Shown: positions 43,317-55,519, counted from the first letter of the stretch. The stretch is DNA of 64,000 bases from an uncultured bacterium (GCA_965112635.1 OZ218778.1:437807-501806), one strand, 5' to 3'. Notes: generated by a model from the letters alone, not told the origin. A program made the numbers and translations.

Positions 43317-43628
43317 ATGGGAAAAATGCCTGTTCAAATTACCGTTGACGACAAAAAAATAGCCGATTTCTGCGTGCGGAACCATATCAGGAAACTATCC
43401 TTTTTCGGATCGGTGTTGGAGGAAAAATTCAGGCCGGACAGCGATATTGACGTTTTGTTGGAATTCGATACCCAATATCCTGTTGGTTTCAGGATCATTG
43501 ACATGGAAGAAGAGCTTTCCCGTCTGTTGGACGGCCACAGGGTGGATATTGTAAATGCTAAATACCTTAATCCCCGCATGAGGAACAATGTGTTGGCCGG
43601 GGCGGAAATGCACTATGCCCAGGGATGA
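43317..43628 (+). CDS. Minimal nucleotidyltransferase (MNT) antitoxin of a HepT/MNT module
   Basis: Pol-beta-type NTase motif GS...DSDIDVLLEF. Confidence 0.8.
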   Translation: MGKMPVQITVDDKKIADFCVRNHIRKLSFFGSVLEEKFRPDSDIDVLLEFDTQYPVGFRIIDMEEELSRLLDGHRVDIVNAKYLNPRMRNNVLAGAEMHYAQG

Positions 43629-43953
43629 AATGATTTATCTGGGGCATATGCTGGATATGACCCAAAAGGCGGTTGATTCGCTAAGAGGAAAATCCCGTGC
43701 CGATTATGATGGGGATGAAATTCTAAGACTGGCCTTGGCTCACCTGGTGCAGACCATCGGAGAAGCAGCTTCCCACGTGTCAAAAGATACTCACGCGAAA
43801 TACCCCAATATCCCATGGAAAAAAATTATCGGGATGCGGCACAAAGTCGTTCACGACTATATGTATGTGGATTATGACATCCTGTGGGACGTTGTTTCCA
43901 TTGAGCTTCCCGCCATTATTCCTCAACTCAAAAAAACATTGGGCATTAATTAA
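43615..43953 (+). CDS. HepT-like (DUF86) toxin, HEPN RNase
   Basis: Overlaps the MNT gene by 14 nt. DUF86/HepT conservation includes an Rx4HxY-type motif (RHKVVHDY). Confidence 0.8.
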   Translation: MPRDEMIYLGHMLDMTQKAVDSLRGKSRADYDGDEILRLALAHLVQTIGEAASHVSKDTHAKYPNIPWKKIIGMRHKVVHDYMYVDYDILWDVVSIELPAIIPQLKKTLGIN

Positions 43954-46359: not shown

Positions 46360-47076
46360 CTACCTAGAGTTTTGTGGTATGCCCTGATTAGCGGGAGCTG
46401 GTGGTCTTAACTGGGGACCATTAAGAACAGCATCCACAAACCGATTCCTTGTTAAAGCGACAATAATTGCATTTCCATCCTTACGGTCAGGATGCAATTG
46501 CCAGAGAACATTTCGCTTTTGATCCTGGTCATACTTTAATACAAACCCCAGAAAATCGAAAAACACCGACACTCGGCTATTGAGCCAGGCGACAGGAAGG
46601 CATTTTTCAGGATTGGGAACTAAGTAATAATCAATCTTGTTTGTGCGTTTAAAACTACCAAAACCCTTTTGAAAACGAGGATAGTCTCTCTTTAGCCGCG
46701 TCCCATCAACAACCCATGCCATTTTTCCATAGAAAGCCTCACGGCTTTGCACCTCACTAGCCTTGATCGCAGAATGCTGAAATTCTATTACGAACCCATT
46801 CTTAGCCTTTATATCTGCAATATGTTTTTCTCCAGTTGTATCTGTATGGATTACCTCCTGCCAATTATCAGGAAAATGTTCTTTCCATTTTCTGTGCCAC
46901 TCTGTTTCATTTTCCCACCAATGATCACAGTCTGCGGTTCTTTTGTGAGCCCAATGCCAGACCTTTACCAGCCCGCACTTGGCGATCATTTCACTTTCGC
47001 AATATCTGCAAGTACCCCGCAGCCCTCGCTGAGCCTCTACCTTGTTTCCATTTACCTTAGCAAATTTCATATTCAT
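46360..47076 (-). CDS. CoiA-like family protein (competence protein CoiA-like; predicted Zn-finger plus nuclease-fold domain)
   Basis: CRYCESEM...C Zn-ribbon, then HWAHKR...H...E...DIKAKNGFVIEFQHSAI, which matches the CoiA-like domain pattern (HFAH...iEfQ.S). First gene of the AT-rich island. Confidence 0.6.
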   Translation of the reverse strand: MNMKFAKVNGNKVEAQRGLRGTCRYCESEMIAKCGLVKVWHWAHKRTADCDHWWENETEWHRKWKEHFPDNWQEVIHTDTTGEKHIADIKAKNGFVIEFQHSAIKASEVQSREAFYGKMAWVVDGTRLKRDYPRFQKGFGSFKRTNKIDYYLVPNPEKCLPVAWLNSRVSVFFDFLGFVLKYDQDQKRNVLWQLHPDRKDGNAIIVALTRNRFVDAVLNGPQLRPPAPANQGIPQNSR

Positions 47077-47506: not shown

Positions 47507-48451
47507 TTACAATAATTTTCCTTGGTTTTTATTAGCATATGCTAAATGCCGTAAGTTGTAGAATTGATCCTTTTTAAAATAAATATCCTGACTAATTATT
47601 TGTTTCTTGGATAATTTATTTTTAGGAAAGAAGGATAATCCATATTTTTTATAATACACACTTTTAAAATTAGATGCATTAAACTCCATAATCTGTATTG
47701 GTAATGAGTTTTGCAACATTTTCTCCGCACAGTTACATTTTCCTTGATGTTCCGAGGTATTATCCAATATCTGCCCAAAGGTCCCTGTAATTAAATCTAC
47801 GTACTGAATAATATGACTCTGTTCTTTATATAATGCTTCCTTCTCATGATCCGAATCCACTTCCAATATTTCATGGTTCTCAAATTTGATATGTTCATCA
47901 TTAATAAAAGCTTTAGTGCCAATCTCAAAAATTGGTTTAGTGTGAAAATTGTCCTCAGATTCTCTGGTTTTTGAATCAGAATAAATATTTTTTATTGTTA
48001 CCTTATCAAATCCAGCGGACTTATTTAGAAAAAACCATTTTAAAGCACCATATAATCCTATTTGGAAAAATCTATTATAGATTTTAAAATCCCTGGTTTG
48101 ATTATCATTCCATAAAGATTTATCCACTTTTGTCAAATCTACCCCAAAAAAATAAAAATAACTTGATTTCATATTTTGATTACAAAATAAATTTAACCAT
48201 CTATTTGCCAAATCATTCTGCGTCAGCGTATTGTTCAGCTTATGAAAATGCAATTCTTTGTTCCACGTGCTTTTTTCACGTTGCTGCAAAAGAGAACCAA
48301 CGAATTTGTCTTCTTTATCAAACGGTATAAATAAATAACCGTGATATAACCACGATTTCGATAATATTCTTTCATCATGAAAAACATTGCATTTAATTTC
48401 TTTATTTTGTACAGGAATATTAAAAAGATCCACATTCATTTCAGTAAGCAA
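47507..48451 (-). CDS. Hypothetical 314-aa protein, very AT-rich and Lys/Asn/Phe-rich; no recognisable domain
   Basis: A long uninterrupted ORF in the AT-rich island, immediately downstream of the HerA-like gene in the same orientation. Confidence 0.5.
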   Translation of the reverse strand: MLTEMNVDLFNIPVQNKEIKCNVFHDERILSKSWLYHGYLFIPFDKEDKFVGSLLQQREKSTWNKELHFHKLNNTLTQNDLANRWLNLFCNQNMKSSYFYFFGVDLTKVDKSLWNDNQTRDFKIYNRFFQIGLYGALKWFFLNKSAGFDKVTIKNIYSDSKTRESEDNFHTKPIFEIGTKAFINDEHIKFENHEILEVDSDHEKEALYKEQSHIIQYVDLITGTFGQILDNTSEHQGKCNCAEKMLQNSLPIQIMEFNASNFKSVYYKKYGLSFFPKNKLSKKQIISQDIYFKKDQFYNLRHLAYANKNQGKLL

Positions 48452-48458
48452 CCATGTT

Positions 48459-50153
48459 CTAGTCCTGCTTATAAGCTGGCTTTGGAAAAATAACCTTCAC
48501 TGGCTGACGAAATATTGCATGCTGAACGAGTAGCTCCCCTTTGGTTAATCTTGTCACCGAAGACTTTAATTCCTGTTCTAAAAATCGGTAATCCGGTTGC
48601 ATGATTTCGCTTGATGTACTACGTCCAATTATTTTTGTTGCGGCATTTCCGGTCACGCGTGGATGCACGGCACTCAAAAACTGTTGGGCTGAAAGCAAAA
48701 TAACACCAAGAGACCGGCCACGTTCTGATATATCAAGTATCTGTTCAATAAGTGGAGATTCCTTACCACCGGAAGGTGCGTATTTATTGAGCTCGTCTAC
48801 AAAAATCAATACTTTCTTGGGAAGATTAAGTGTTTCATCAGACTCTGCAAACATTTCATAAATATTTCGTATCACATCTCCGAAAACGAAAGCCTGTTCA
48901 TGATCTAGTAATTTTGCTATATCAATAACATATGTATGTCCGCCTTCTATTTTATGTATTTCATCTGCCAGGTGGTGCTCTAGACGTGTGCGACGGTCCG
49001 TAAAAAGACCCGTAGTACGCGTCTTTACCATTCGGCGAAGGTGTCTCCGAAACTTACCGACAGAACTGGGTTTTATGTCACCTATTCCTTGGGATTTTCC
49101 AGAATCAGCAAGAGGATATCCGTCCAGAAGGCTACTCCAATCCTGAACTTTAGCAAACGGTGATTTCGCTGTCTTATTCATTAAACCGCTCGATATTTCT
49201 CCTATAAGGGAATCAATAGTTTCTGTTGGATCAGGAATGCTGGAAAATAGTAAATCCAGCTTATCCGCAGAGTCATTTAATTCATAAGCATAAACTTTGT
49301 GTTGATTTGGCCTGACAAAACTATTGGCCTCTCCATTTTTAGCTCGAGGCAAATAGTAATGGACATTCTGAAATGGTTTTGGCTCTAACCCAAGACGCAG
49401 CCAAAGACCCTTTTGCTCTTCACTTAAATCTTTTGGCGGCTCATCAATCTTAAGCAAATCTCCATGCTTAACATTTAAAATGATAACAGCGACTTCCGAT
49501 GATTCAATTTTTTGAATAATAGACTGTAGTAAAAACATTGCATAACTTGTTTTAGTAGCCAGCCCACTAATCCCTGAAATATTGACGTGAGCCGATTCGG
49601 GACCGATTACATAATCTTTATCAAGATAAACTACTGCCTCAACATCGTTACTCATTTTAATTAGTCCGGCAGGGATCCGATTCTCTTGTTTCATAGTGTC
49701 TATTCCTAAAGCCGCATGGATGCCTGACTCGTCAGCAAACCGAACATTTCTTTCATTTTCAATGGGCATGTAGATTCCATCTTTAGTTGTTCCATCAGAA
49801 TTTTTGCCACCGCCGTCATTCATCATAACGTTAGCTTTAGCAAGAGTTGCTCCCACCCGTGGCGTATTTGGCTCTTCCGCAACTGATCCAAAATTATTTG
49901 ACACAAAATTCGCGAGATGACTTGCAGCGTCCGTCCTGTGCTCCAGACCAGCGATTAGCCCATATGTTTTACTTCCGTTAAAATGTTCCGATTCAACAAT
50001 GTCAAAAGGATTTACAAGAACATTCGCAGTTATCCAGAAATTAAACTTGTCGGCTGTAGTTGGTTCCTTGTCTGTCGCTGATGTCCTCCCGATTATCGGA
50101 TTTTCTTTCTTATCACTCATATACGCTACCTCCTCAAAGCAGAATTTATACAA
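48459..50153 (-). CDS. HerA/FtsK-superfamily-like P-loop ATPase (tentative)
   Basis: Deviant Walker A region (NISGISGLATKTS), Walker B hhhhDE (VLIFVDELNKY) and a downstream Arg-containing segment (ERGRSLGVILLSAQQ); 564 aa. Overlaps the upstream NurA-like gene by 28 nt. Confidence 0.5.
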   Translation of the reverse strand: MYKFCFEEVAYMSDKKENPIIGRTSATDKEPTTADKFNFWITANVLVNPFDIVESEHFNGSKTYGLIAGLEHRTDAASHLANFVSNNFGSVAEEPNTPRVGATLAKANVMMNDGGGKNSDGTTKDGIYMPIENERNVRFADESGIHAALGIDTMKQENRIPAGLIKMSNDVEAVVYLDKDYVIGPESAHVNISGISGLATKTSYAMFLLQSIIQKIESSEVAVIILNVKHGDLLKIDEPPKDLSEEQKGLWLRLGLEPKPFQNVHYYLPRAKNGEANSFVRPNQHKVYAYELNDSADKLDLLFSSIPDPTETIDSLIGEISSGLMNKTAKSPFAKVQDWSSLLDGYPLADSGKSQGIGDIKPSSVGKFRRHLRRMVKTRTTGLFTDRRTRLEHHLADEIHKIEGGHTYVIDIAKLLDHEQAFVFGDVIRNIYEMFAESDETLNLPKKVLIFVDELNKYAPSGGKESPLIEQILDISERGRSLGVILLSAQQFLSAVHPRVTGNAATKIIGRSTSSEIMQPDYRFLEQELKSSVTRLTKGELLVQHAIFRQPVKVIFPKPAYKQD

Positions 50154-51253
50154 CCTTGGATAACTTCCGTAGAAAAGAACAACTGTTTTGAAGCATGTTC
50201 AGCTTGATAGATAGGGTAAAGATGAGAATGCCAACGATCATCTGATCCATAAGGGGTCACAAATCGCTCTGCGAGTAAGGCTCCTGATATTTGATCCAAA
50301 AGCTCTGTTGTTAAAGGTTGTTCTTCAAGAATAGGAATCTCTACCTTTATTACGCCAAATAAGGGGTATAAAACCTGCTGTGATTTCCTTAATCTTAAAT
50401 ACCAGAATGCAGTTTTGCCCCCATATCCTTCATACGCAGCAGTTCGATTATTTTGTGGCAGATTACCAAGTAAGGAAACTACGCTCTCACTCTGCCTAGC
50501 TTTACCTTGCTGAGAATAAAATTTTTGTACAGTTGTAAAATTTTTTGCTACTCCAATTACCTTGGGGCTTTGCATGCCACCGCCAAAATGACCGAAGGAG
50601 ACAAGACCATCCTTTAAAAGCCATCCATCGGGAACCTTATCACGAAATTCTTTAGCAATTTCAAACTCCATGGTGCTCATCAAATGTCTTGTTTTGCTCC
50701 TTCCCCTTTCTCTTAAATCCTGCGTTTCCAGGAATTCACCGCTAAGGGCATCAAGTTCAATTAAATCTTTAATAATAATATTTACCCCTGCATCTTTAGT
50801 TGAGTCTTGTATTTTTTGCCACGCCAACTCTGATACTCTTGATTTAGCTATCAAAAGAAACCACTGATGTCTCTTGAAAACAGAAGTTAACCTTCCCTCA
50901 CCACTACGTTTTAAAATAGTAACTGATATTTGAGAAAGGAATATCGGGGTTGCGCGGTCATGTTCAAGGCCGGTTGCCAGAAAATAATGCCGGTAGGAGC
51001 CGTCGAGAAAATACCTGAAAAAATGATTTTGTTCTCTAGTTATTGGCTGTAGTTCCTTGTATTTCCATGTTGGTTTGGGAACTTCAAGTAAAGAATCAAT
51101 TTGCAGGTGATCGCCAACGAGTTTAGTGTCATCCCTTTCTTCTTCTCCAACAAAGGTCATTTCCTCAGTAGCTCCCCCACTAGCGGGAAGTAGCTCTAGT
51201 TGATTAGAAACAACAGACATAATTGATTTAAGGGTACTTACAAATTCCCTCAC
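50126..51253 (-). CDS. NurA-like nuclease (tentative)
   Basis: 375 aa with a NurA-like first catalytic motif (FLDGSYRHYF). An overlapping operon arrangement with a HerA-like ATPase is typical of NurA-HerA pairs. Confidence 0.45.
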   Translation of the reverse strand: MREFVSTLKSIMSVVSNQLELLPASGGATEEMTFVGEEERDDTKLVGDHLQIDSLLEVPKPTWKYKELQPITREQNHFFRYFLDGSYRHYFLATGLEHDRATPIFLSQISVTILKRSGEGRLTSVFKRHQWFLLIAKSRVSELAWQKIQDSTKDAGVNIIIKDLIELDALSGEFLETQDLRERGRSKTRHLMSTMEFEIAKEFRDKVPDGWLLKDGLVSFGHFGGGMQSPKVIGVAKNFTTVQKFYSQQGKARQSESVVSLLGNLPQNNRTAAYEGYGGKTAFWYLRLRKSQQVLYPLFGVIKVEIPILEEQPLTTELLDQISGALLAERFVTPYGSDDRWHSHLYPIYQAEHASKQLFFSTEVIQGCINSALRR

Positions 51254-51758
51254 CTATCCTCCAAACTTAAATTTACTTCCTTTAATTCGTCCTTATTTAT
51301 ACCCCATATATCTGACGCAATCTCATTGATCTGGTCCTCATATTCACTTACATTTATTCCAGACATAACCTTGTCATGACATATTTTCGAGAGTCTTGCC
51401 AATTCTTGGTGAGCTTCTAAAATTTTAGTAAATTTAGGTATTTTTATTTTTTCCAAAATGTGAGTACTCTGTGATGTAGATATTGTGTAAGACCGAACAA
51501 TTAGTCTAGTAATAGACGAATTTAATAGCGCACACAAATAATGAGCTTCTATTTCATCTTGAATATCAACCATCATAAGTTTATGATCTGGAATAATTGT
51601 TTTACCATTTAATTCGGAAATAACAGCACATTCAAACTCTGAAGATTGTTCCTTCCAAACAACCTTAAACGGACTAAATGTATACGGTCCAATATTATAA
51701 ATAGCGTATGACCTGCCCCCATTCTTTGTACCACTTGTTAAGTTAGAGTTAAGCAGCA
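51250..51758 (-). pseudogene. C-terminal fragment of an N6-adenine DNA methyltransferase (TaqI_C/Eco57I-type target-recognition region), truncated at its 5' side by the IS3 insertion
   Basis: ...FKVVWKEQSSEFECAVISELNGKTIIPDHKLMMVDIQDEIEAHYLCALLNSSITRLIV... has the hallmark LLNS motif of the TaqI_C domain. The track ORF's first ~45 codons (51759-51897) lie inside the IS end and are spurious. Confidence 0.5.
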
Positions 51759-52465
51759 TGACATAGGGCAATGCAAGGTTGCAGCAACCTTGCTTCCGGA
51801 GCTGGTGGCCGATACCCCAGTGAGCTATGCGGTCTTTTTGTATTGTACTCCTTCCTCCAGTTTTCGATAACATACTTTGCCTCCCACAGATTATCAAATA
51901 TTTCTCCGGCTAAGACCTCGTCCCTGAGTTTCCCATTAAAAGACTCGCAGTATCCGTTCTCCCACGGACTTCCAGGTTCGATAAATAAAGTCTTAACGCC
52001 GATATTACCCAGCCAACCTCTGATCATTTCTGAAGTAAACTCGCTTCCGTTATCCGACCTGATGTACTCAGGAATACCTCTACTGATGAATAGATCCATC
52101 AAACATTCCTGAACATCATCCGCCTTGAGACTTCTTCCCACTACCAGAGCCAGGCACTCCCTGGTGTATTCGTCTATCACGGTCAAGATCCGGAACGCTC
52201 GTCCTTCGCTTGTTCTATCCTTTACAAAATCATAGCTCCAGACATGGTCCTTATGATCTGGCCTTAATCTGACACAGGAGCCGTCGTTGAACCACAGACG
52301 CCTTCTTTTACGCTGCTTCTTCGGTATTTTTAGCGCTTCCTGTCTCCATATTCGCTCAACTTTCTTGTGATTAACCAGCCATCCCTCATCTCTGAGCATT
52401 GCCGTAATCCTACGATATCCGTAACGGCCATACTGGTTGGCCAGATTGATGATAGTTTCTGCCAA
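51749..52465 (-). CDS. IS3-family transposase OrfB (rve integrase core), 5'-truncated/separated from orfA by the IS256 insertion
   Basis: YGYRRITAMLR...HKDHVWSYDFV...IDEYTRECLA...E DDE-type integrase core. Confidence 0.85.
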   Translation of the reverse strand: MAETIINLANQYGRYGYRRITAMLRDEGWLVNHKKVERIWRQEALKIPKKQRKRRRLWFNDGSCVRLRPDHKDHVWSYDFVKDRTSEGRAFRILTVIDEYTRECLALVVGRSLKADDVQECLMDLFISRGIPEYIRSDNGSEFTSEMIRGWLGNIGVKTLFIEPGSPWENGYCESFNGKLRDEVLAGEIFDNLWEAKYVIENWRKEYNTKRPHSSLGYRPPAPEARLLQPCIALCHAA

Positions 52466-52585
52466 CCCCCAATCCCTTCCTTCGCGCTTTTGCTGGTACC
52501 TGGTTGTGTACCATTCCTGGGTGTAACTTCAACGAGGGGAAAGGCAAGGTTAGATTGCAGCAATCTAACCTTGCGGCCCCAAAAA

Positions 52586-53906
52586 TAAGTCCACGGGCGT
52601 AGACTAGGTGATTGCTTAGGTCACCAAACCCAAAATAAAAGGAGGTCTACACCCGTGAAGTCATTATCCCAAAGAATTGAGATTTATACGAATCAGAAAA
52701 TCAGAGAAAAAGTCAGAAAGATCGCACAGCCCGGTGTCGCTCTGGAAGTAATTGGCCAGGAGGTCAATGCCATCATTGCCCAGGCTTTAGATATTCAACT
52801 GGAGGCTGAAAGGGACGAGTTTTTGGGCCGTCAGCCTTATGAACGCCTTGAAAACAGCCCTAAAAGAAACGGTTTTAAATCCACCTCTGTCCCCGGCTTT
52901 TTTGGCAGACTTTTTCTGCACAAACCAGCTCTACGCCAGGGGTCCCTTCACTCGCCCTTGCTTACCGCCCTCAAACAAGCTGGAAAAGGCCTGGCTTCCT
53001 TCCTCGCCATCCGCTTCTGGCTCAAAGGCGCTGCCACTCGCTCTACCGCCGCTGAGATAAATGCCGCTTTGGGCACAAAGCTCTCTCACTCCACCGTCTC
53101 CACTCTCACCAACGCCTTGGAGCCAGCCATCCGTCAGTGGATGAATCGTCCCATTCCTCCCAACATCACCTACCTGCTCCTGGACGCCGCCTACCTGCCT
53201 GTCAGAAGACCTGGTTTTACCTCCAAACAAGCTCTATTGCTCGCCCTAGGCATGGATTCCTTTGGCAATCGCCATGTCCTGGGTTTCCTTCTCGGCGATA
53301 GAGAGTCCTTGGACTCCTGGCAGGCTTTTATCAATGACCTCCTCAAAAGAGGCCTTAACCGCAACACCCTCAGGCTCGTCATCTCCGATGAACACAAGGC
53401 CATTGAGCAGGCCGTCAAAAACCTCCTGGCTGTCCCTCACCAGCTCTGCCTGGTCCACAAGATCCGAAACCTCAGAGCCATTATGCCTCGCCGTGACTGG
53501 GGTGCCTTCCTTAACGATTTCAAAGCTATCTATTGGGCCGATTCCCGCAAACTGGCTCTCCAGGCCTTTGGCCGCCTCCAAGCTCGCTGGATGAAACTCT
53601 ATCCTAGAGCTACGGCTATGGCTCTCGATAGGTTCGACAACCTCACCACCTTCATGAACGAACCCCAGCATGTCTGGCGCACTCTCCGCTCCAGCAATCT
53701 CATCGAACGCTTTATCGCCGAGATCAAACGGCGCACCCGTGCTGCCGGCACCATGCACTCCGAATTGGAGGTCGCTAAGATCGTCTGGTCTGTTTCTACC
53801 ACTCAGGAAGATAATTGGTCTAAAAGAAAACTCTGGAAATCTCAAGGAGGTGATCTGGTTCAGGAAGGCTTGCTAAATGTTGCTTAACCTACTACCCGTG
53901 GACTTA
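52586..53906 (+). mobile_element. IS256-family insertion sequence with imperfect terminal inverted repeats (taagtccacgggCgtagACtagg / cctaCtacccgtggactta)
   Basis: The inverted repeats were found by eye and flank the transposase gene. Confidence 0.65.
52655..53887 (+). CDS. IS256-family (Mutator-like) transposase
   Basis: 410-aa product with the DDE region YLLLDAAYL...VISDEHKAIE...E and IS256-type N-terminal conservation. It starts at GTG. Confidence 0.9.
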   Translation: MKSLSQRIEIYTNQKIREKVRKIAQPGVALEVIGQEVNAIIAQALDIQLEAERDEFLGRQPYERLENSPKRNGFKSTSVPGFFGRLFLHKPALRQGSLHSPLLTALKQAGKGLASFLAIRFWLKGAATRSTAAEINAALGTKLSHSTVSTLTNALEPAIRQWMNRPIPPNITYLLLDAAYLPVRRPGFTSKQALLLALGMDSFGNRHVLGFLLGDRESLDSWQAFINDLLKRGLNRNTLRLVISDEHKAIEQAVKNLLAVPHQLCLVHKIRNLRAIMPRRDWGAFLNDFKAIYWADSRKLALQAFGRLQARWMKLYPRATAMALDRFDNLTTFMNEPQHVWRTLRSSNLIERFIAEIKRRTRAAGTMHSELEVAKIVWSVSTTQEDNWSKRKLWKSQGGDLVQEGLLNVA

Positions 53907-54046
53907 ACAACTTACACCCGAAAACTTGACATAATCCTGGTACCTCTGCGTTGAGCGCCCTTGCTCTACTGCTTTGCATGCCCGGCGCTCAGAAACTCCC
54001 ATATTTACGCAGACTTCTTCTACCGCTGCGCGTCTTTTCACCGGGC

Positions 54047-54337
54047 TTAATATTTTCCCGAACTTATCACCTTGTTGTATTCCTTCAGTATCTGGATATC
54101 CAAAGCTTGATTTGCGATCACTTTCTTTAACTGGTTATTTTCTTGCTCCAGCGACCTTAATCGCTTGGCCTCGTCCACTTTCATCCCGCCGTATTTCTGC
54201 CGCCACTTGTAGTAGGTATTCGCCGATATTCCTTTTGCCCGACAAAGCTCCTCTACCGTCTTGCCTTTGGCTATCTCTACCTCAAACTCCCGTAGCATGG
54301 ATACGACCTGCTCGGGTTTGTTGTATTTCCTTGGCAT
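54047..54337 (-). CDS. IS3-family transposase OrfA (HTH)
   Basis: MPRKYNKPEQVVSMLREFEVEIAKGKTVEELCRAKGISANTYYKWRQKY...LEQENNQLKK gives an HTH plus a leucine zipper, as in IS3 OrfA. Confidence 0.8.
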   Translation of the reverse strand: MPRKYNKPEQVVSMLREFEVEIAKGKTVEELCRAKGISANTYYKWRQKYGGMKVDEAKRLRSLEQENNQLKKVIANQALDIQILKEYNKVISSGKY

Positions 54338-54406
54338 AAAAATCCCCCTTCCTTTGTCCTTCCTTTAGAGTTATTCTAACTCAAAAGGTGGACCAGTTTT
54401 AGGGGG

Positions 54407-55311: not shown

Positions 55312-55456
55312 AACTAGTGTCACCACTAGTGTCACCAAGGCATGGGTCATGACACTAGCTAGGCTGGCGGGGCAAGATGATTGTTTATAGCCTGTAATAT
55401 ATAAAGAAACACTAGTGTCATGACTAGTGTCACCAGGCTATGGGTCATGACACTAG
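55312..55456. promoter_or_regulatory. Two ~46-bp blocks of operator-like half-sites (actagtgtca x2, then an inverted tgacactag) about 97 bp apart, in the intergenic region upstream of the T9SS-CTD protein gene
   Basis: Block 1 at 55312-55357 is actagtgtcacc-actagtgtcacc-aaggcatggg-tcatgacactag. Block 2 at 55409-55456 is actagtgtcatg-actagtgtcacc-aggctatggg-tcatgacactag. Confidence 0.5.
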
Positions 55457-55519
55457 TTGGACTGGCCGAGGGTGGCATAAGCTGGCCAGGGGATGGCAAG
55501 GGACTGAGCAGGGATTGTT

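What the first reader, a model, noticed from the sequence alone, without database searches (positions are those of the whole stretch)
48459..51253. Overlapping NurA-like nuclease / HerA-like ATPase pair with a deviant Walker A
The upstream 375-aa gene has a NurA-type first catalytic motif (FLDGS). The downstream 564-aa gene has Walker B VLIFVDELNKY, but its Walker A region is non-canonical: GISGLATKTS rather than GxxxxGK[ST]. The two genes overlap by 28 nt, which suggests translational coupling. NurA-HerA pairs are best known from archaeal end resection. A diverged bacterial pair in a mobile, AT-rich context with an MTase remnant suggests repurposing for immunity.
Basis: inference. Interest (0 to 1): 0.7.

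Follow-up and report, generated by a model that had tools for sequence, protein, structure and literature searches.

The report
NurA–HerA pair orphaned from restriction enzyme
This is a genuine bacterial NurA nuclease / HerA DNA-motor pair of a known type that nearly always travels with a large type IIG restriction–methylation enzyme, but here an insertion sequence has destroyed that enzyme, leaving an ordinary, partly decayed copy.

Summary
Both ORFs and the quoted motifs are real. The 28-nt overlap is not: HerA almost certainly starts at ATG 50120 (553 aa, GAGGAGG 8 nt upstream), 5 nt after the NurA stop. HerA matches Deinococcus radiodurans HerA (PDB 7F6D, E 2.3e-40). The "deviant" Walker A GISGLATKTS is that family's functional P-loop and is invariant in all 63 homologues with a motif match. 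The 375-aa protein has the NurA fold and keeps the catalytic Asp, Lys and Arg. By sequence the pair belongs to the TdtA-type clade, not the Deinococcus repair clade. It is 55.6% (HerA) and 37.9% (NurA) identical to the Thermus scotoductus tdtA-like cluster, against 36–38% and 24.6% for the Deinococcus type. In 61 of 64 informative loci from many phyla, this pair sits next to a co-evolving ~1,090-aa type IIG restriction–methylation enzyme. In the window only the last ~159 codons of that gene survive, cut by a nested IS. The only genetics on this clade (Thermus ICETh1) ties all three genes to DNA donation. A defence role is plausible but untested. Verdict: new member of a known kind, moderate interest.

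The parts
50126..51253 (-). NurA-like RNase H-fold nuclease, 375 aa, GTG start overlapping the stop of the upstream type IIG remnant (GTGA)
   Evidence: ORF. phmmer gives DrNurA 7f6d_H at E 0.0075. The AlphaFold2 model (pLDDT 75.9, pTM 0.80) best matches 7f6d_G (E 1.8e-10) and 1zup_A (E 6.6e-08). D84, D215/G216, K237 and R340 are invariant in 19 homologues. D84, K237 and R340 correspond to drNurA D53, K201 and R309. No Pfam NurA hit.
50996..51010 (-). NurA motif I (FLDGS, residues 82-86) with the catalytic Asp84
   Evidence: The motif is F[LIMQVA]DG[ST] in 71 of 78 homologues.
48459..50120 (-). HerA-clade (TdtA-type) ATPase/translocase, 553 aa from ATG 50120
   Evidence: Matches PDB 7f6d_B drHerA at E 2.3e-40. 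P0121 is 100% identical and 553 aa. It is 55.6% identical over full length to the T. scotoductus tdtA-like cluster gene, against 36-38% to the Deinococcus-type gene. No hydrophobic segment typical of a membrane span.
50129..50135 (-). Shine-Dalgarno GAGGAGG for HerA, 8 nt before ATG 50120, inside the 3' end of NurA
   Evidence: Sequence read.
49545..49574 (-). Walker A / P-loop GISGLATKTS (residues 183-192; Lys190, Thr191)
   Evidence: Identical in 63 of 63 homologues with a motif match. Equivalent to drHerA K175/T176, which contact the beta-phosphate and Mg2+ (PMC9960219).
48780..48812 (-). Walker B VLIFVDELNKY (residues 437-447; Asp442, Glu443)
   Evidence: Equivalent to drHerA D487/E488.
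51254..51708 (-). Pseudogene remnant: the last ~159 codons (target-recognition domain) of a Tth111II-family type IIG restriction-methylation enzyme
   Evidence: TaqI_C and PDLC03630 at 1.7e-47. tblastn with the intact 1088-aa homologue finds only residues 928-1086, and nothing else in the 64-kb window. Intact genes occupy the same position in L003, L004, L010, L013, L015 and L020.
51709..54400 (-). Nested insertion sequences that truncate the type IIG gene. An IS3-family element (orfB 51749..52465, orfA 54047..54337) is itself interrupted by an IS256/Mutator-family transposase gene (52655..53887, + strand). Outer ends are approximate.
   Evidence: Pfam rve/rve_3/HTH_21, HTH_Tnp_1 and Transposase_mut. 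Junction sequence.
47507..48451 (-). Probable fourth gene of the cassette in this genome: a divergent DUF3800 protein with an RNase HII-like fold (314 aa), 7 nt after the HerA stop, 28.7% GC
   Evidence: It is 23% identical (E 2.6e-16) to L024:9101-10000, which hits PF12686. Of 46 family members, 11 hit DUF3800. The AlphaFold2 model has pLDDT 93.9 and its best solved-structure matches are RNase HII/HIII.

Best explanation
The two genes encode a bacterial NurA-HerA machine of the TdtA type.

Mechanism, transferred from the solved D. radiodurans complex: a hexameric HerA ring translocates double-stranded DNA using ATP. It feeds the DNA into a NurA dimer, which separates and cuts the strands.

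In this clade the pair is not a stand-alone repair system. It is the conserved, co-inherited partner of a ~1,090-aa type IIG restriction-methylation enzyme of the Tth111II/TthHB27I family. That enzyme keeps its nuclease, SAM-binding and NPPW motifs.

The most likely working order is as follows. The type IIG enzyme marks host DNA by methylation and nicks or cuts unmethylated sites. NurA-HerA then loads on the resulting ends and processes them. The result is either destruction of foreign DNA, which I favour (about 0.5), or production and export of DNA fragments as in Thermus 'transjugation' (about 0.25).

In this window the cassette arrived by horizontal transfer and has decayed. A nested IS insertion with an associated deletion removed about 85% of the type IIG gene. 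What remains is an intact NurA-HerA pair, plus a DUF3800-like gene, without the enzyme that would supply DNA ends.

Shown here: homology, fold, conserved catalytic residues, gene linkage, co-evolution and the truncation. Inferred: the hand-off from the restriction enzyme to NurA-HerA, and the biological role.
For: Identity:
- HerA matches 7f6d_B at E 2.3e-40, including NISGISG-ATKTSYA and VDELNKYAP.
- The NurA-like model best matches DrNurA and TM1739.
- Catalytic equivalents D84, K237 and R340 are invariant.

Clade:
- HerA is 55.6% and NurA 37.9% identical to the T. scotoductus DSM 8553 cluster (L065). Blesa et al. name a tdtA-like cluster with a type IIG homologue in that strain.
- Against the Deinococcus-type locus L090 the figures are 36-38% and 24.6%. 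L090 has no type IIG gene and sits among housekeeping genes.

Linkage:
- Of 80 species-level loci, 61 carry a type IIG homologue on the same strand next to the pair: 39 upstream and 22 downstream.
- Only 3 of the 64 loci with at least 3.5 kb on both sides lack it.
- Stop and start codons overlap by 4 nt in the window's clade.

Co-evolution:
- Pairwise-identity matrices of NurA, HerA and the type IIG enzyme correlate at r = 0.84-0.90, Mantel p <= 0.001. Gene order follows the HerA clade.

Active restriction enzyme:
- Invariant E56, D65, E74-x-K/E and QVK (PD-(D/E)XK-like), DPxCGSGxF and NPPW.
- Full-length match to PADLOC REase_MTase_IIG.

Autonomy and mobility:
- The 148 nearest neighbours fall into 112 Pfam families with no dominant one. 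They include integrases, HEC-01-like ATPases and DUF3800.
- L004 lies beside a serine recombinase, an nSTAND NTPase and an AAA_5/PRTase-CE gene.

Foreign origin and decay in the window:
- GC3 is 0.27-0.33 against 0.62-0.73.
- Only type IIG residues 928-1086 remain.
- IS3 and IS256 genes abut the remnant.

Genetics in Thermus:
- All three genes are needed for one shared process (PMC5365140).
Against: - No experiment links this clade to phage defence.
- The only phenotype known is DNA donation in T. thermophilus.
- PADLOC v2 has no model that hits the NurA-like protein. It hits only the C-terminal third of HerA (mad8 at 2.4e-09, HerA at 2.3e-05).
- Many neighbours are housekeeping genes.
- The window copy lacks the type IIG enzyme, and I found no convincing promoter upstream of NurA. 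This copy may therefore do nothing.
- I did not have the TdtA (TTC1879) sequence itself. The link to TdtA runs through the T. scotoductus cluster named in the paper.
- The hand-off from restriction enzyme to NurA-HerA is inference.
Confidence: 0.6

Rival explanations
1. DNA-donation module. As in Thermus thermophilus ICETh1, the type IIG enzyme cuts the host's own chromosome at many sites. NurA-HerA (TdtA) then processes and pushes the fragments out to a competent neighbour ('transjugation'). The window would hold a decayed copy of such a DNA secretion system.
For: This is the only genetically tested cluster of the clade. Deleting tdtA abolishes DNA donation. Deleting the NurA-like gene or Tth111II lowers it by 3-5 orders of magnitude (PMC5365140; PMC7767461). 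The window pair is closest to the Thermus tdtA-like cluster. Integrases flank some loci.
Against: The triad occurs in at least 166 species-level genomes across many phyla where transjugation is unknown. The window HerA and NurA show no hydrophobic segment typical of a membrane span. No transfer, relaxase or secretion genes recur among 148 neighbours. The window has no tRNA gene, and no integrase family was found among the nine ORFs scanned between 45.6 and 54.3 kb. Gene turnover and repeated decay of the type IIG gene resemble restriction-modification systems.
Confidence: 0.25
2. Housekeeping double-strand-break repair. The pair resects broken chromosome ends for recombination, as proposed for archaeal and Deinococcus NurA-HerA. 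The methyltransferase remnant would be a chance neighbour.
For: The closest solved structure is the D. radiodurans end-resection complex, and all catalytic residues are kept. Deinococcus-type and actinobacterial-type loci sit in housekeeping or SbcCD-like contexts.
Against: The window pair lies in a foreign, AT-rich block. It belongs to a different clade from the Deinococcus pair. In that clade it is linked to a type IIG enzyme in 61 of 64 informative loci and co-evolves with it. The NurA-like family was confirmed in only 166 of 185,579 species genomes, so it is not a core repair function.
Confidence: 0.07
3. Non-functional relic. After the IS destroyed the type IIG gene and probably the operon promoter, NurA-HerA are silent genes awaiting decay.
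For: About 85% of the type IIG gene is missing. Only weak promoter-like sites lie upstream of NurA, no more than chance gives. Similar decayed cassettes exist elsewhere: L007-9 with a 125-aa N-terminal remnant, and L019, L029 and L061 with C-terminal remnants.
Against: Both ORFs are full length with every catalytic motif intact. Loci without any type IIG gene but with an intact pair exist (L018, L076, L085), so the pair may persist alone. Outward transcription from the IS cannot be excluded.
Confidence: 0.3

Closest known systems
Thermus thermophilus HB27 ICETh1 tdtA operon: Tth111II/TthHB27I (type IIG) - NurA-like TTC1878 - TdtA TTC1879 - N4/N6 methylase (Blesa et al. 2017, PMC5365140)
   Same: Same gene order and sizes: about 1,100 aa type IIG enzyme, about 377 aa NurA-like protein, then a HerA/FtsK-clade ATPase. 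The window pair is 55.6% and 37.9% identical to the T. scotoductus cluster that the authors call tdtA-like. Both lie in regions of lower G+C than the host.
   Different: The window's type IIG gene is truncated to 159 codons. The fourth gene is a DUF3800-like protein, not a PF01555 methylase. No integrase or tRNA attachment site is present. The host lineage is different: relatives are Ignavibacteria, Zhuqueibacterota and Anaerolineae. The TdtA sequence itself was not available for direct comparison.
Deinococcus radiodurans NurA-HerA end-resection complex (PDB 7F6D; PMC9960219)
   Same: Homologous proteins with the same unusual P-loop (GISG-ATKTS), the same Walker B and the same NurA catalytic Asp/Lys/Arg. 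The mechanism is presumably the same: a hexameric translocase feeds a NurA dimer.
   Different: A different clade, at 36-38% and 24.6% identity. The Deinococcus-type NurA is recognised by Pfam PF09376, while the window protein is not. The Deinococcus-type locus has no type IIG gene and sits among housekeeping genes.
Archaeal HerA-NurA (Sulfolobus, Pyrococcus), encoded with Mre11-Rad50
   Same: Same two folds and the same adjacency of nuclease and ATPase genes.
   Different: Only marginal sequence similarity: NCBIfam helicase_HerA scores 17 bits against a cut-off of 970. Archaeal HerA has a canonical Walker A (from general knowledge of the family, not tested here). There is no Mre11/Rad50 in the window.
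HerA-containing anti-phage systems (Sir2-HerA, DUF4297-HerA, MADS mad8)
   Same: A HerA-clade ATPase paired with an effector enzyme in mobile islands. MADS also includes a methyltransferase. PADLOC mad8 and HerA models hit the C-terminal third of the window protein.
   Different: The partner here is NurA, not SIR2 or DUF4297. The hits are partial and weak (2.4e-09 and 2.3e-05). No PADLOC model matches the NurA-like protein.

Membership tests
Bacterial NurA nuclease (DrNurA / TM1739 type) | RNase H-like NurA fold | tested here: met
   The AlphaFold2 model (pLDDT 75.9, pTM 0.80) has 7f6d_G (E 1.8e-10, prob 1.00) and 1zup_A (E 6.6e-08) as its only two significant matches among solved structures.
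Bacterial NurA nuclease (DrNurA / TM1739 type) | Catalytic residues equivalent to drNurA D53, K201 and R309 | tested here: met
   D84 (FLDGS), K237 (GVAKNF) and R340 (DDRWH) are invariant in 19 homologues. K237 and R340 align to the drNurA positions, allowing a 20-residue numbering offset of the PDB chain. Their roles come from PMC9960219. D84 is placed as the equivalent of D53 by motif position only, because that stretch was not in the alignment.
Bacterial NurA nuclease (DrNurA / TM1739 type) | Match to Pfam NurA (PF09376) above its gathering score | tested here: not met
   No Pfam hit at E <= 0.1. The T. scotoductus homologue also has none. The Deinococcus-type NurA in L090 does hit PF09376.
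Bacterial NurA nuclease (DrNurA / TM1739 type) | Dimer that docks on a HerA hexamer; Mn2+-dependent nuclease activity | not testable with these tools
   Only single-chain prediction is available, and there is no biochemistry.
HerA/FtsK-clade ATPase, bacterial HerA type | Full-length sequence homology to a solved HerA | tested here: met
   7f6d_B at E 2.3e-40, in two stretches covering residues 130-280 and 362-561 of the 564-aa ORF.
HerA/FtsK-clade ATPase, bacterial HerA type | Functional P-loop Lys/Thr and Walker B Asp/Glu | tested here: met
   K190/T191 in GISGLATKTS and D442/E443 in VDELNKY align with drHerA K175/T176 and D487/E488. The motif is invariant in 63 homologues.
HerA/FtsK-clade ATPase, bacterial HerA type | Curated profile match (Pfam HerA-type domains; NCBIfam helicase_HerA) | tested here: not met
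   No Pfam family. NCBIfam helicase_HerA scores 17.3 bits against a cut-off of 970, and CedB 18.2 against 700. Those models describe archaeal proteins.
ICETh1-type tdtA operon (type IIG enzyme - NurA - TdtA) | Intact Tth111II-family type IIG enzyme gene in the same operon | tested here: not met
   Only residues equivalent to 928-1086 remain (51254..51708), and nothing else in the window. The gene is intact in 6 close relatives and present in 61 of 64 informative loci.
ICETh1-type tdtA operon (type IIG enzyme - NurA - TdtA) | NurA-like gene directly upstream of a TdtA-like ATPase gene, closest to the Thermus tdtA-like cluster | tested here: met
   A 5-nt spacer separates the genes. Identity to L065 (T. 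scotoductus DSM 8553) is 55.6% and 37.9%. The cluster is named in PMC5365140.
ICETh1-type tdtA operon (type IIG enzyme - NurA - TdtA) | Integrative element context: integrase, insertion at a tRNA gene, flanking direct repeats | tested here: not met
   No tRNA gene in the 64 kb. No integrase family among the nine ORFs scanned between 45.6 and 54.3 kb. No flanking direct repeats. The IS-associated deletion may have removed one end.
ICETh1-type tdtA operon (type IIG enzyme - NurA - TdtA) | Requirement for DNA donation (transjugation) | not testable with these tools
   A genetic phenotype; it needs mating assays.
Known HerA-based anti-phage systems (Sir2-HerA, DUF4297-HerA, MADS) | Cognate effector partner and model-level match of the components | tested here: not met
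   PADLOC gives only partial C-terminal hits for HerA (mad8 2.4e-09, HerA 2.3e-05) and none for the NurA-like protein or w314. No SIR2 or DUF4297 gene lies nearby.

The most novel reading that the evidence does not exclude
The type IIG enzyme - NurA - HerA triad may be a widespread, self-contained and horizontally mobile restriction system. In it, a weakly cutting type IIG enzyme hands DNA ends to its own dedicated degradation motor, so that restriction and RecBCD-like destruction come in one cassette. Such a class has no matching system in PADLOC v2, where no model hits the NurA-like protein. I found no description of it in the held literature beyond three examples. Thermus 'transjugation' would then be a by-product of this machinery acting on a polyploid host genome. 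The recurrent DUF3800 / RNase HII-like gene inside restriction operons would be an accessory or a counter-measure.
Probability: 0.4. Interest if true: 0.7.

Novelty: new member of a known kind. Interest (0 to 1): 0.45.

Why it matters
For this locus, little: it is a decayed copy of a family whose structure and chemistry are already known.

The survey behind the verdict is more useful. The NurA-HerA pair studied in Thermus as a 'DNA secretion system' belongs to a three-gene cassette. That cassette is conserved and co-evolving, and it moves between at least a dozen phyla together with an apparently active type IIG restriction-methylation enzyme.

This poses a clear, testable question. Is the cassette a restriction system with a built-in degradation motor, or a general DNA-donation device? 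The mutants that would decide it are NurA D84, HerA K190/E443, and the type IIG residues equivalent to D65/E74 and NPPW (positions in the intact L003 enzyme).

The survey also shows that the odd P-loop GISGLATKTS is a strict family hallmark, not a sign of lost activity.

Tried and rejected
- **Curated libraries.** Pfam, NCBIfam and PHROGs scans of the two proteins gave nothing usable. Identification came from solved-structure sequences and fold comparison.
- **w314 versus classical DUF3800.** Direct BLAST of w314 against the DUF3800 of L007 showed no similarity. The link to DUF3800 came through L024 and a family-wide scan.
- **Radical SAM neighbour.** A B12-binding radical SAM gene recurs downstream of the triad in 10 Chloroflexi loci, and one lies 6 kb away in the window. 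They share only superfamily-level similarity (about 21% identity), so I dropped it as part of the system.
- **Plasmids.** There is no NurA-like match and only distant HerA-like hits, so the cassette is not a common plasmid passenger in PLSDB.
- **Promoters and terminators.** The counts do not exceed shuffled expectation, so they say nothing about expression.
- **Island ends.** The repeat search found no attachment-site-like repeats.
- **Deinococcus search.** The search with a reconstructed 194-aa drHerA fragment returned mostly short fragments. Two long-contig loci were still informative.
- **Literature.** Ten searches found no paper that describes the triad as a general system or as phage defence. 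The library holds open-access papers only, so this is not proof of novelty.
- **Rejected readings.** I rejected a VirB4/TraG-type conjugation ATPase, since the best matches are HerA. I also rejected a degenerate ATPase, since the P-loop is conserved and functional in drHerA.
Full report
**Observation**

Both ORFs exist on the minus strand. The 375-aa ORF is at 50126..51253 (GTG start). The second ORF is at 48459..50153 and is 564 aa if read from the first TTG. The quoted motifs are present:
- FLDGS at residues 82-86 of the first protein.
- GISGLATKTS and VLIFVDELNKY in the second.

The 28-nt overlap depends entirely on the TTG at 50153. Three lines point to an ATG at 50120 instead:
- It lies 8 nt after a GAGGAGG and 5 nt after the NurA stop codon.
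- The database holds an identical 553-aa protein, and homologues of 550-553 aa align from residue 1.
- An independent gene call on the same sequence gives a 5-nt gap.

The true overlap in this operon is the GTGA junction between the upstream remnant and NurA. Intact relatives have the same junction.

**What the proteins are**

The curated profile libraries are almost silent on both proteins. Comparison with solved structures is decisive.

- *HerA.* The ATPase matches D. radiodurans HerA (7f6d_B) at E 2.3e-40. The alignment includes NISGISG(L/V)ATKTSYA and VDELNKYAP.
- *Walker A.* The BMC Biology 2023 paper on that structure places the Walker A lysine K175 on the beta-phosphate and T176 on Mg2+. 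It reports that K175 and D487/E488 mutants lose ATPase and resection activity (PMC9960219). The window equivalents are K190/T191 and D442/E443.
- *Conservation.* Among the HerA homologues next to NurA-like genes in 80 species-level genomes, GISGLATKTS is identical in all 63 that have a motif match. The 'deviant' Walker A is therefore the normal, functional P-loop of bacterial HerA.
- *NurA.* The 375-aa protein matches DrNurA only weakly by sequence (E 0.0075). An AlphaFold2 model (pLDDT 75.9, pTM 0.80) has DrNurA (E 1.8e-10) and Thermotoga TM1739 (E 6.6e-08) as its only significant solved-structure matches.
- *Catalytic residues.* D84, K237 and R340 are invariant in the family. They correspond to drNurA D53, K201 and R309, which are needed for nuclease activity.

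**Which NurA-HerA**

The NurA-like family is small. It has 196 database clusters and was confirmed in 166 of 185,579 species genomes. It spans Ignavibacteria, Zhuqueibacterota, Chloroflexota, Thermus, Armatimonadota, Omnitrophota, Patescibacteria, Clostridia, Thermodesulfovibrionales, Verrucomicrobia and Terriglobia.

A tblastn survey of 80 loci gave these results:
- HerA always follows NurA.
- A homologous ~1,090-aa Eco57I-like protein lies on the same strand next to the pair in 61 loci: 39 upstream and 22 downstream.
- Of the 64 loci with at least 3.5 kb on both sides, only three lack it.

That large protein is a full-length match to the PADLOC type IIG REase-MTase model. It keeps an N-terminal PD-(D/E)XK-like motif set (E56, D65, E74-x-K/E, QVK), the SAM motif DPxCGSGxF, and NPPW.

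The pairwise identities of the three proteins are strongly correlated (r = 0.84-0.90, Mantel p <= 0.001). Gene order follows the HerA clade, and clades cut across phyla. The three genes are therefore inherited and transferred as one unit.

**The window copy**

Only the last ~159 codons of the type IIG gene remain (51254..51708). No other piece is found anywhere in the 64 kb.

The break abuts an IS3-family element (orfB 51749..52465, orfA 54047..54337). That element is itself split by an IS256-family transposase gene.

The block from the remnant to the 314-aa gene has GC3 of 0.27-0.33, against 0.62-0.73 in the flanking host genes. It is therefore foreign DNA. NurA and HerA are full length with every motif intact.

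**Literature**

Blesa et al. 2017 described this arrangement in T. thermophilus HB27. The operon is Tth111II (type IIG, 1,106 aa), a NurA-like protein (377 aa), TdtA (a hexameric HerA/FtsK ATPase) and a methylase, carried on the mobile element ICETh1.
- All three of the first genes are needed for DNA donation in 'transjugation'.
- The authors noted similar clusters in T. scotoductus DSM 8553 and Chloracidobacterium (PMC5365140; PMC7767461).

My locus L065 is from T. scotoductus DSM 8553. The window proteins are 55.6% (HerA) and 37.9% (NurA) identical to it. Against a Deinococcus-type locus the figures are 36-38% and 24.6%. That locus has a Pfam-recognisable NurA, no type IIG gene and housekeeping neighbours.

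The window pair is thus a TdtA-type pair, not a repair-type pair. I found no paper that treats the triad as a general system or as phage defence. The library is open-access only.

**How it most likely works**

- *Shown in the Deinococcus homologue:* a HerA hexamer translocates duplex DNA into a NurA dimer, which splits and cuts the strands.
- *Shown in Thermus:* the type IIG enzyme, NurA and TdtA act in one pathway.
- *Shown here:* strict linkage and co-evolution with an apparently active restriction-methylation enzyme.
- *Inferred:* the type IIG enzyme supplies nicks or ends, and NurA-HerA processes them.

Tth111II is reported to cut poorly and mainly to nick.

The cassette's neighbours argue for an autonomous mobile module. 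The 148 nearest genes fall into 112 Pfam families. They include integrases, HEC-01-like defence ATPases (sometimes inserted between the type IIG gene and NurA) and DUF3800 genes. One locus lies beside a serine recombinase and nSTAND and PRTase-CE genes. No transfer or secretion genes recur, and the window HerA and NurA show no hydrophobic segment typical of a membrane span.

I therefore favour restriction with built-in degradation (about 0.5) over DNA donation (about 0.25) and repair (below 0.1). The only phenotype on record favours donation. In this genome the partner enzyme is gone, so this copy may be inactive whichever role the cassette has.

**Verdict**

This is a new, decayed member of a known kind. 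The wider pattern, a cross-phylum triad of type IIG enzyme, NurA and HerA, is the part worth following up.

Noticed in passing
window 47507..48451 (-); L092:2601-3539; L024:9101-10000: The 314-aa gene 7 nt downstream of HerA is a divergent DUF3800 protein. Its confident model (pLDDT 93.9) resembles RNase HII/HIII, and D26-E27 and D219 are invariant. Its closest homologue (56% identity) lies inside a type III restriction operon, between the Mod and Res genes. Another homologue lies between the type IIG gene and NurA. DUF3800-like genes seem to embed repeatedly in restriction operons.
   Followed up: partly
window 51709..54400: Nested insertion sequences. An IS256/Mutator-family transposase gene (52655..53887, +) sits inside an IS3-family element (orfA 54047..54337, orfB 51749..52465, -). 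The missing 5' 85% of the type IIG gene is not on the far side, so a deletion accompanied the insertion.
   Followed up: partly
window 46360..47076 (-): A CoiA-like protein (CoiA_N 4.7e-08, CoiA nuclease-like domain 4e-04) with intermediate GC3 (0.40) lies at the edge of the AT-rich block. A 56-aa gene called in L001 lies between it and the DUF3800-like gene.
   Followed up: no
window about 43326..43953 (-), from L001:8840-9467: A HepT-like / nucleotidyltransferase (MNT) toxin-antitoxin pair lies between the epimerase and the GMC oxidoreductase genes. A similar pair also sits beside the type III restriction operon in L092.
   Followed up: no
window 55313..55368 and 55411..55466: Two 56-nt direct repeats (86% identical), rich in ACTAGTGTCA-type palindromic units, lie in the intergenic region between the 285-aa and 516-aa ORFs. 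No explanation yet.
   Followed up: no
L049:3539-4711, L060:8045-9292, L066:1791-3116, L003:2770-4547: An AAA_15/AAA_21 ATPase matching PADLOC HEC-01A/mad3 lies beside the triad in L003, where a DUF4276 (HEC-01B) gene follows it. In three other loci it is inserted between the type IIG gene and NurA. One defence-type module thus nests inside another.
   Followed up: partly
L007:7540-8703 (also L008, L009): Another decayed cassette. A 125-aa remnant of the N-terminus of the type IIG enzyme is followed by a classical DUF3800 gene and an intact NurA-HerA pair. This parallels the window, but with the opposite end of the restriction gene surviving.
   Followed up: partly
L091:6994-10808: A Deinococcus-type HerA (fragmented calls in a long-read assembly) is followed by SbcD_C-like and SMC_N/AAA_23 (SbcC-like) genes. 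This bacterial arrangement recalls the archaeal HerA-NurA-Mre11-Rad50 cluster.
   Followed up: no
L025, L033, L035, L037, L048, L054, L057, L074, L075, L077 (downstream of the triad): A ~520-aa B12-binding radical SAM gene recurs on the same strand downstream of the NurA-HerA-type IIG arrangement in ten Chloroflexi-type loci. It could reflect shared ancestry of the insertion site or a real association; this was not resolved.
   Followed up: partly
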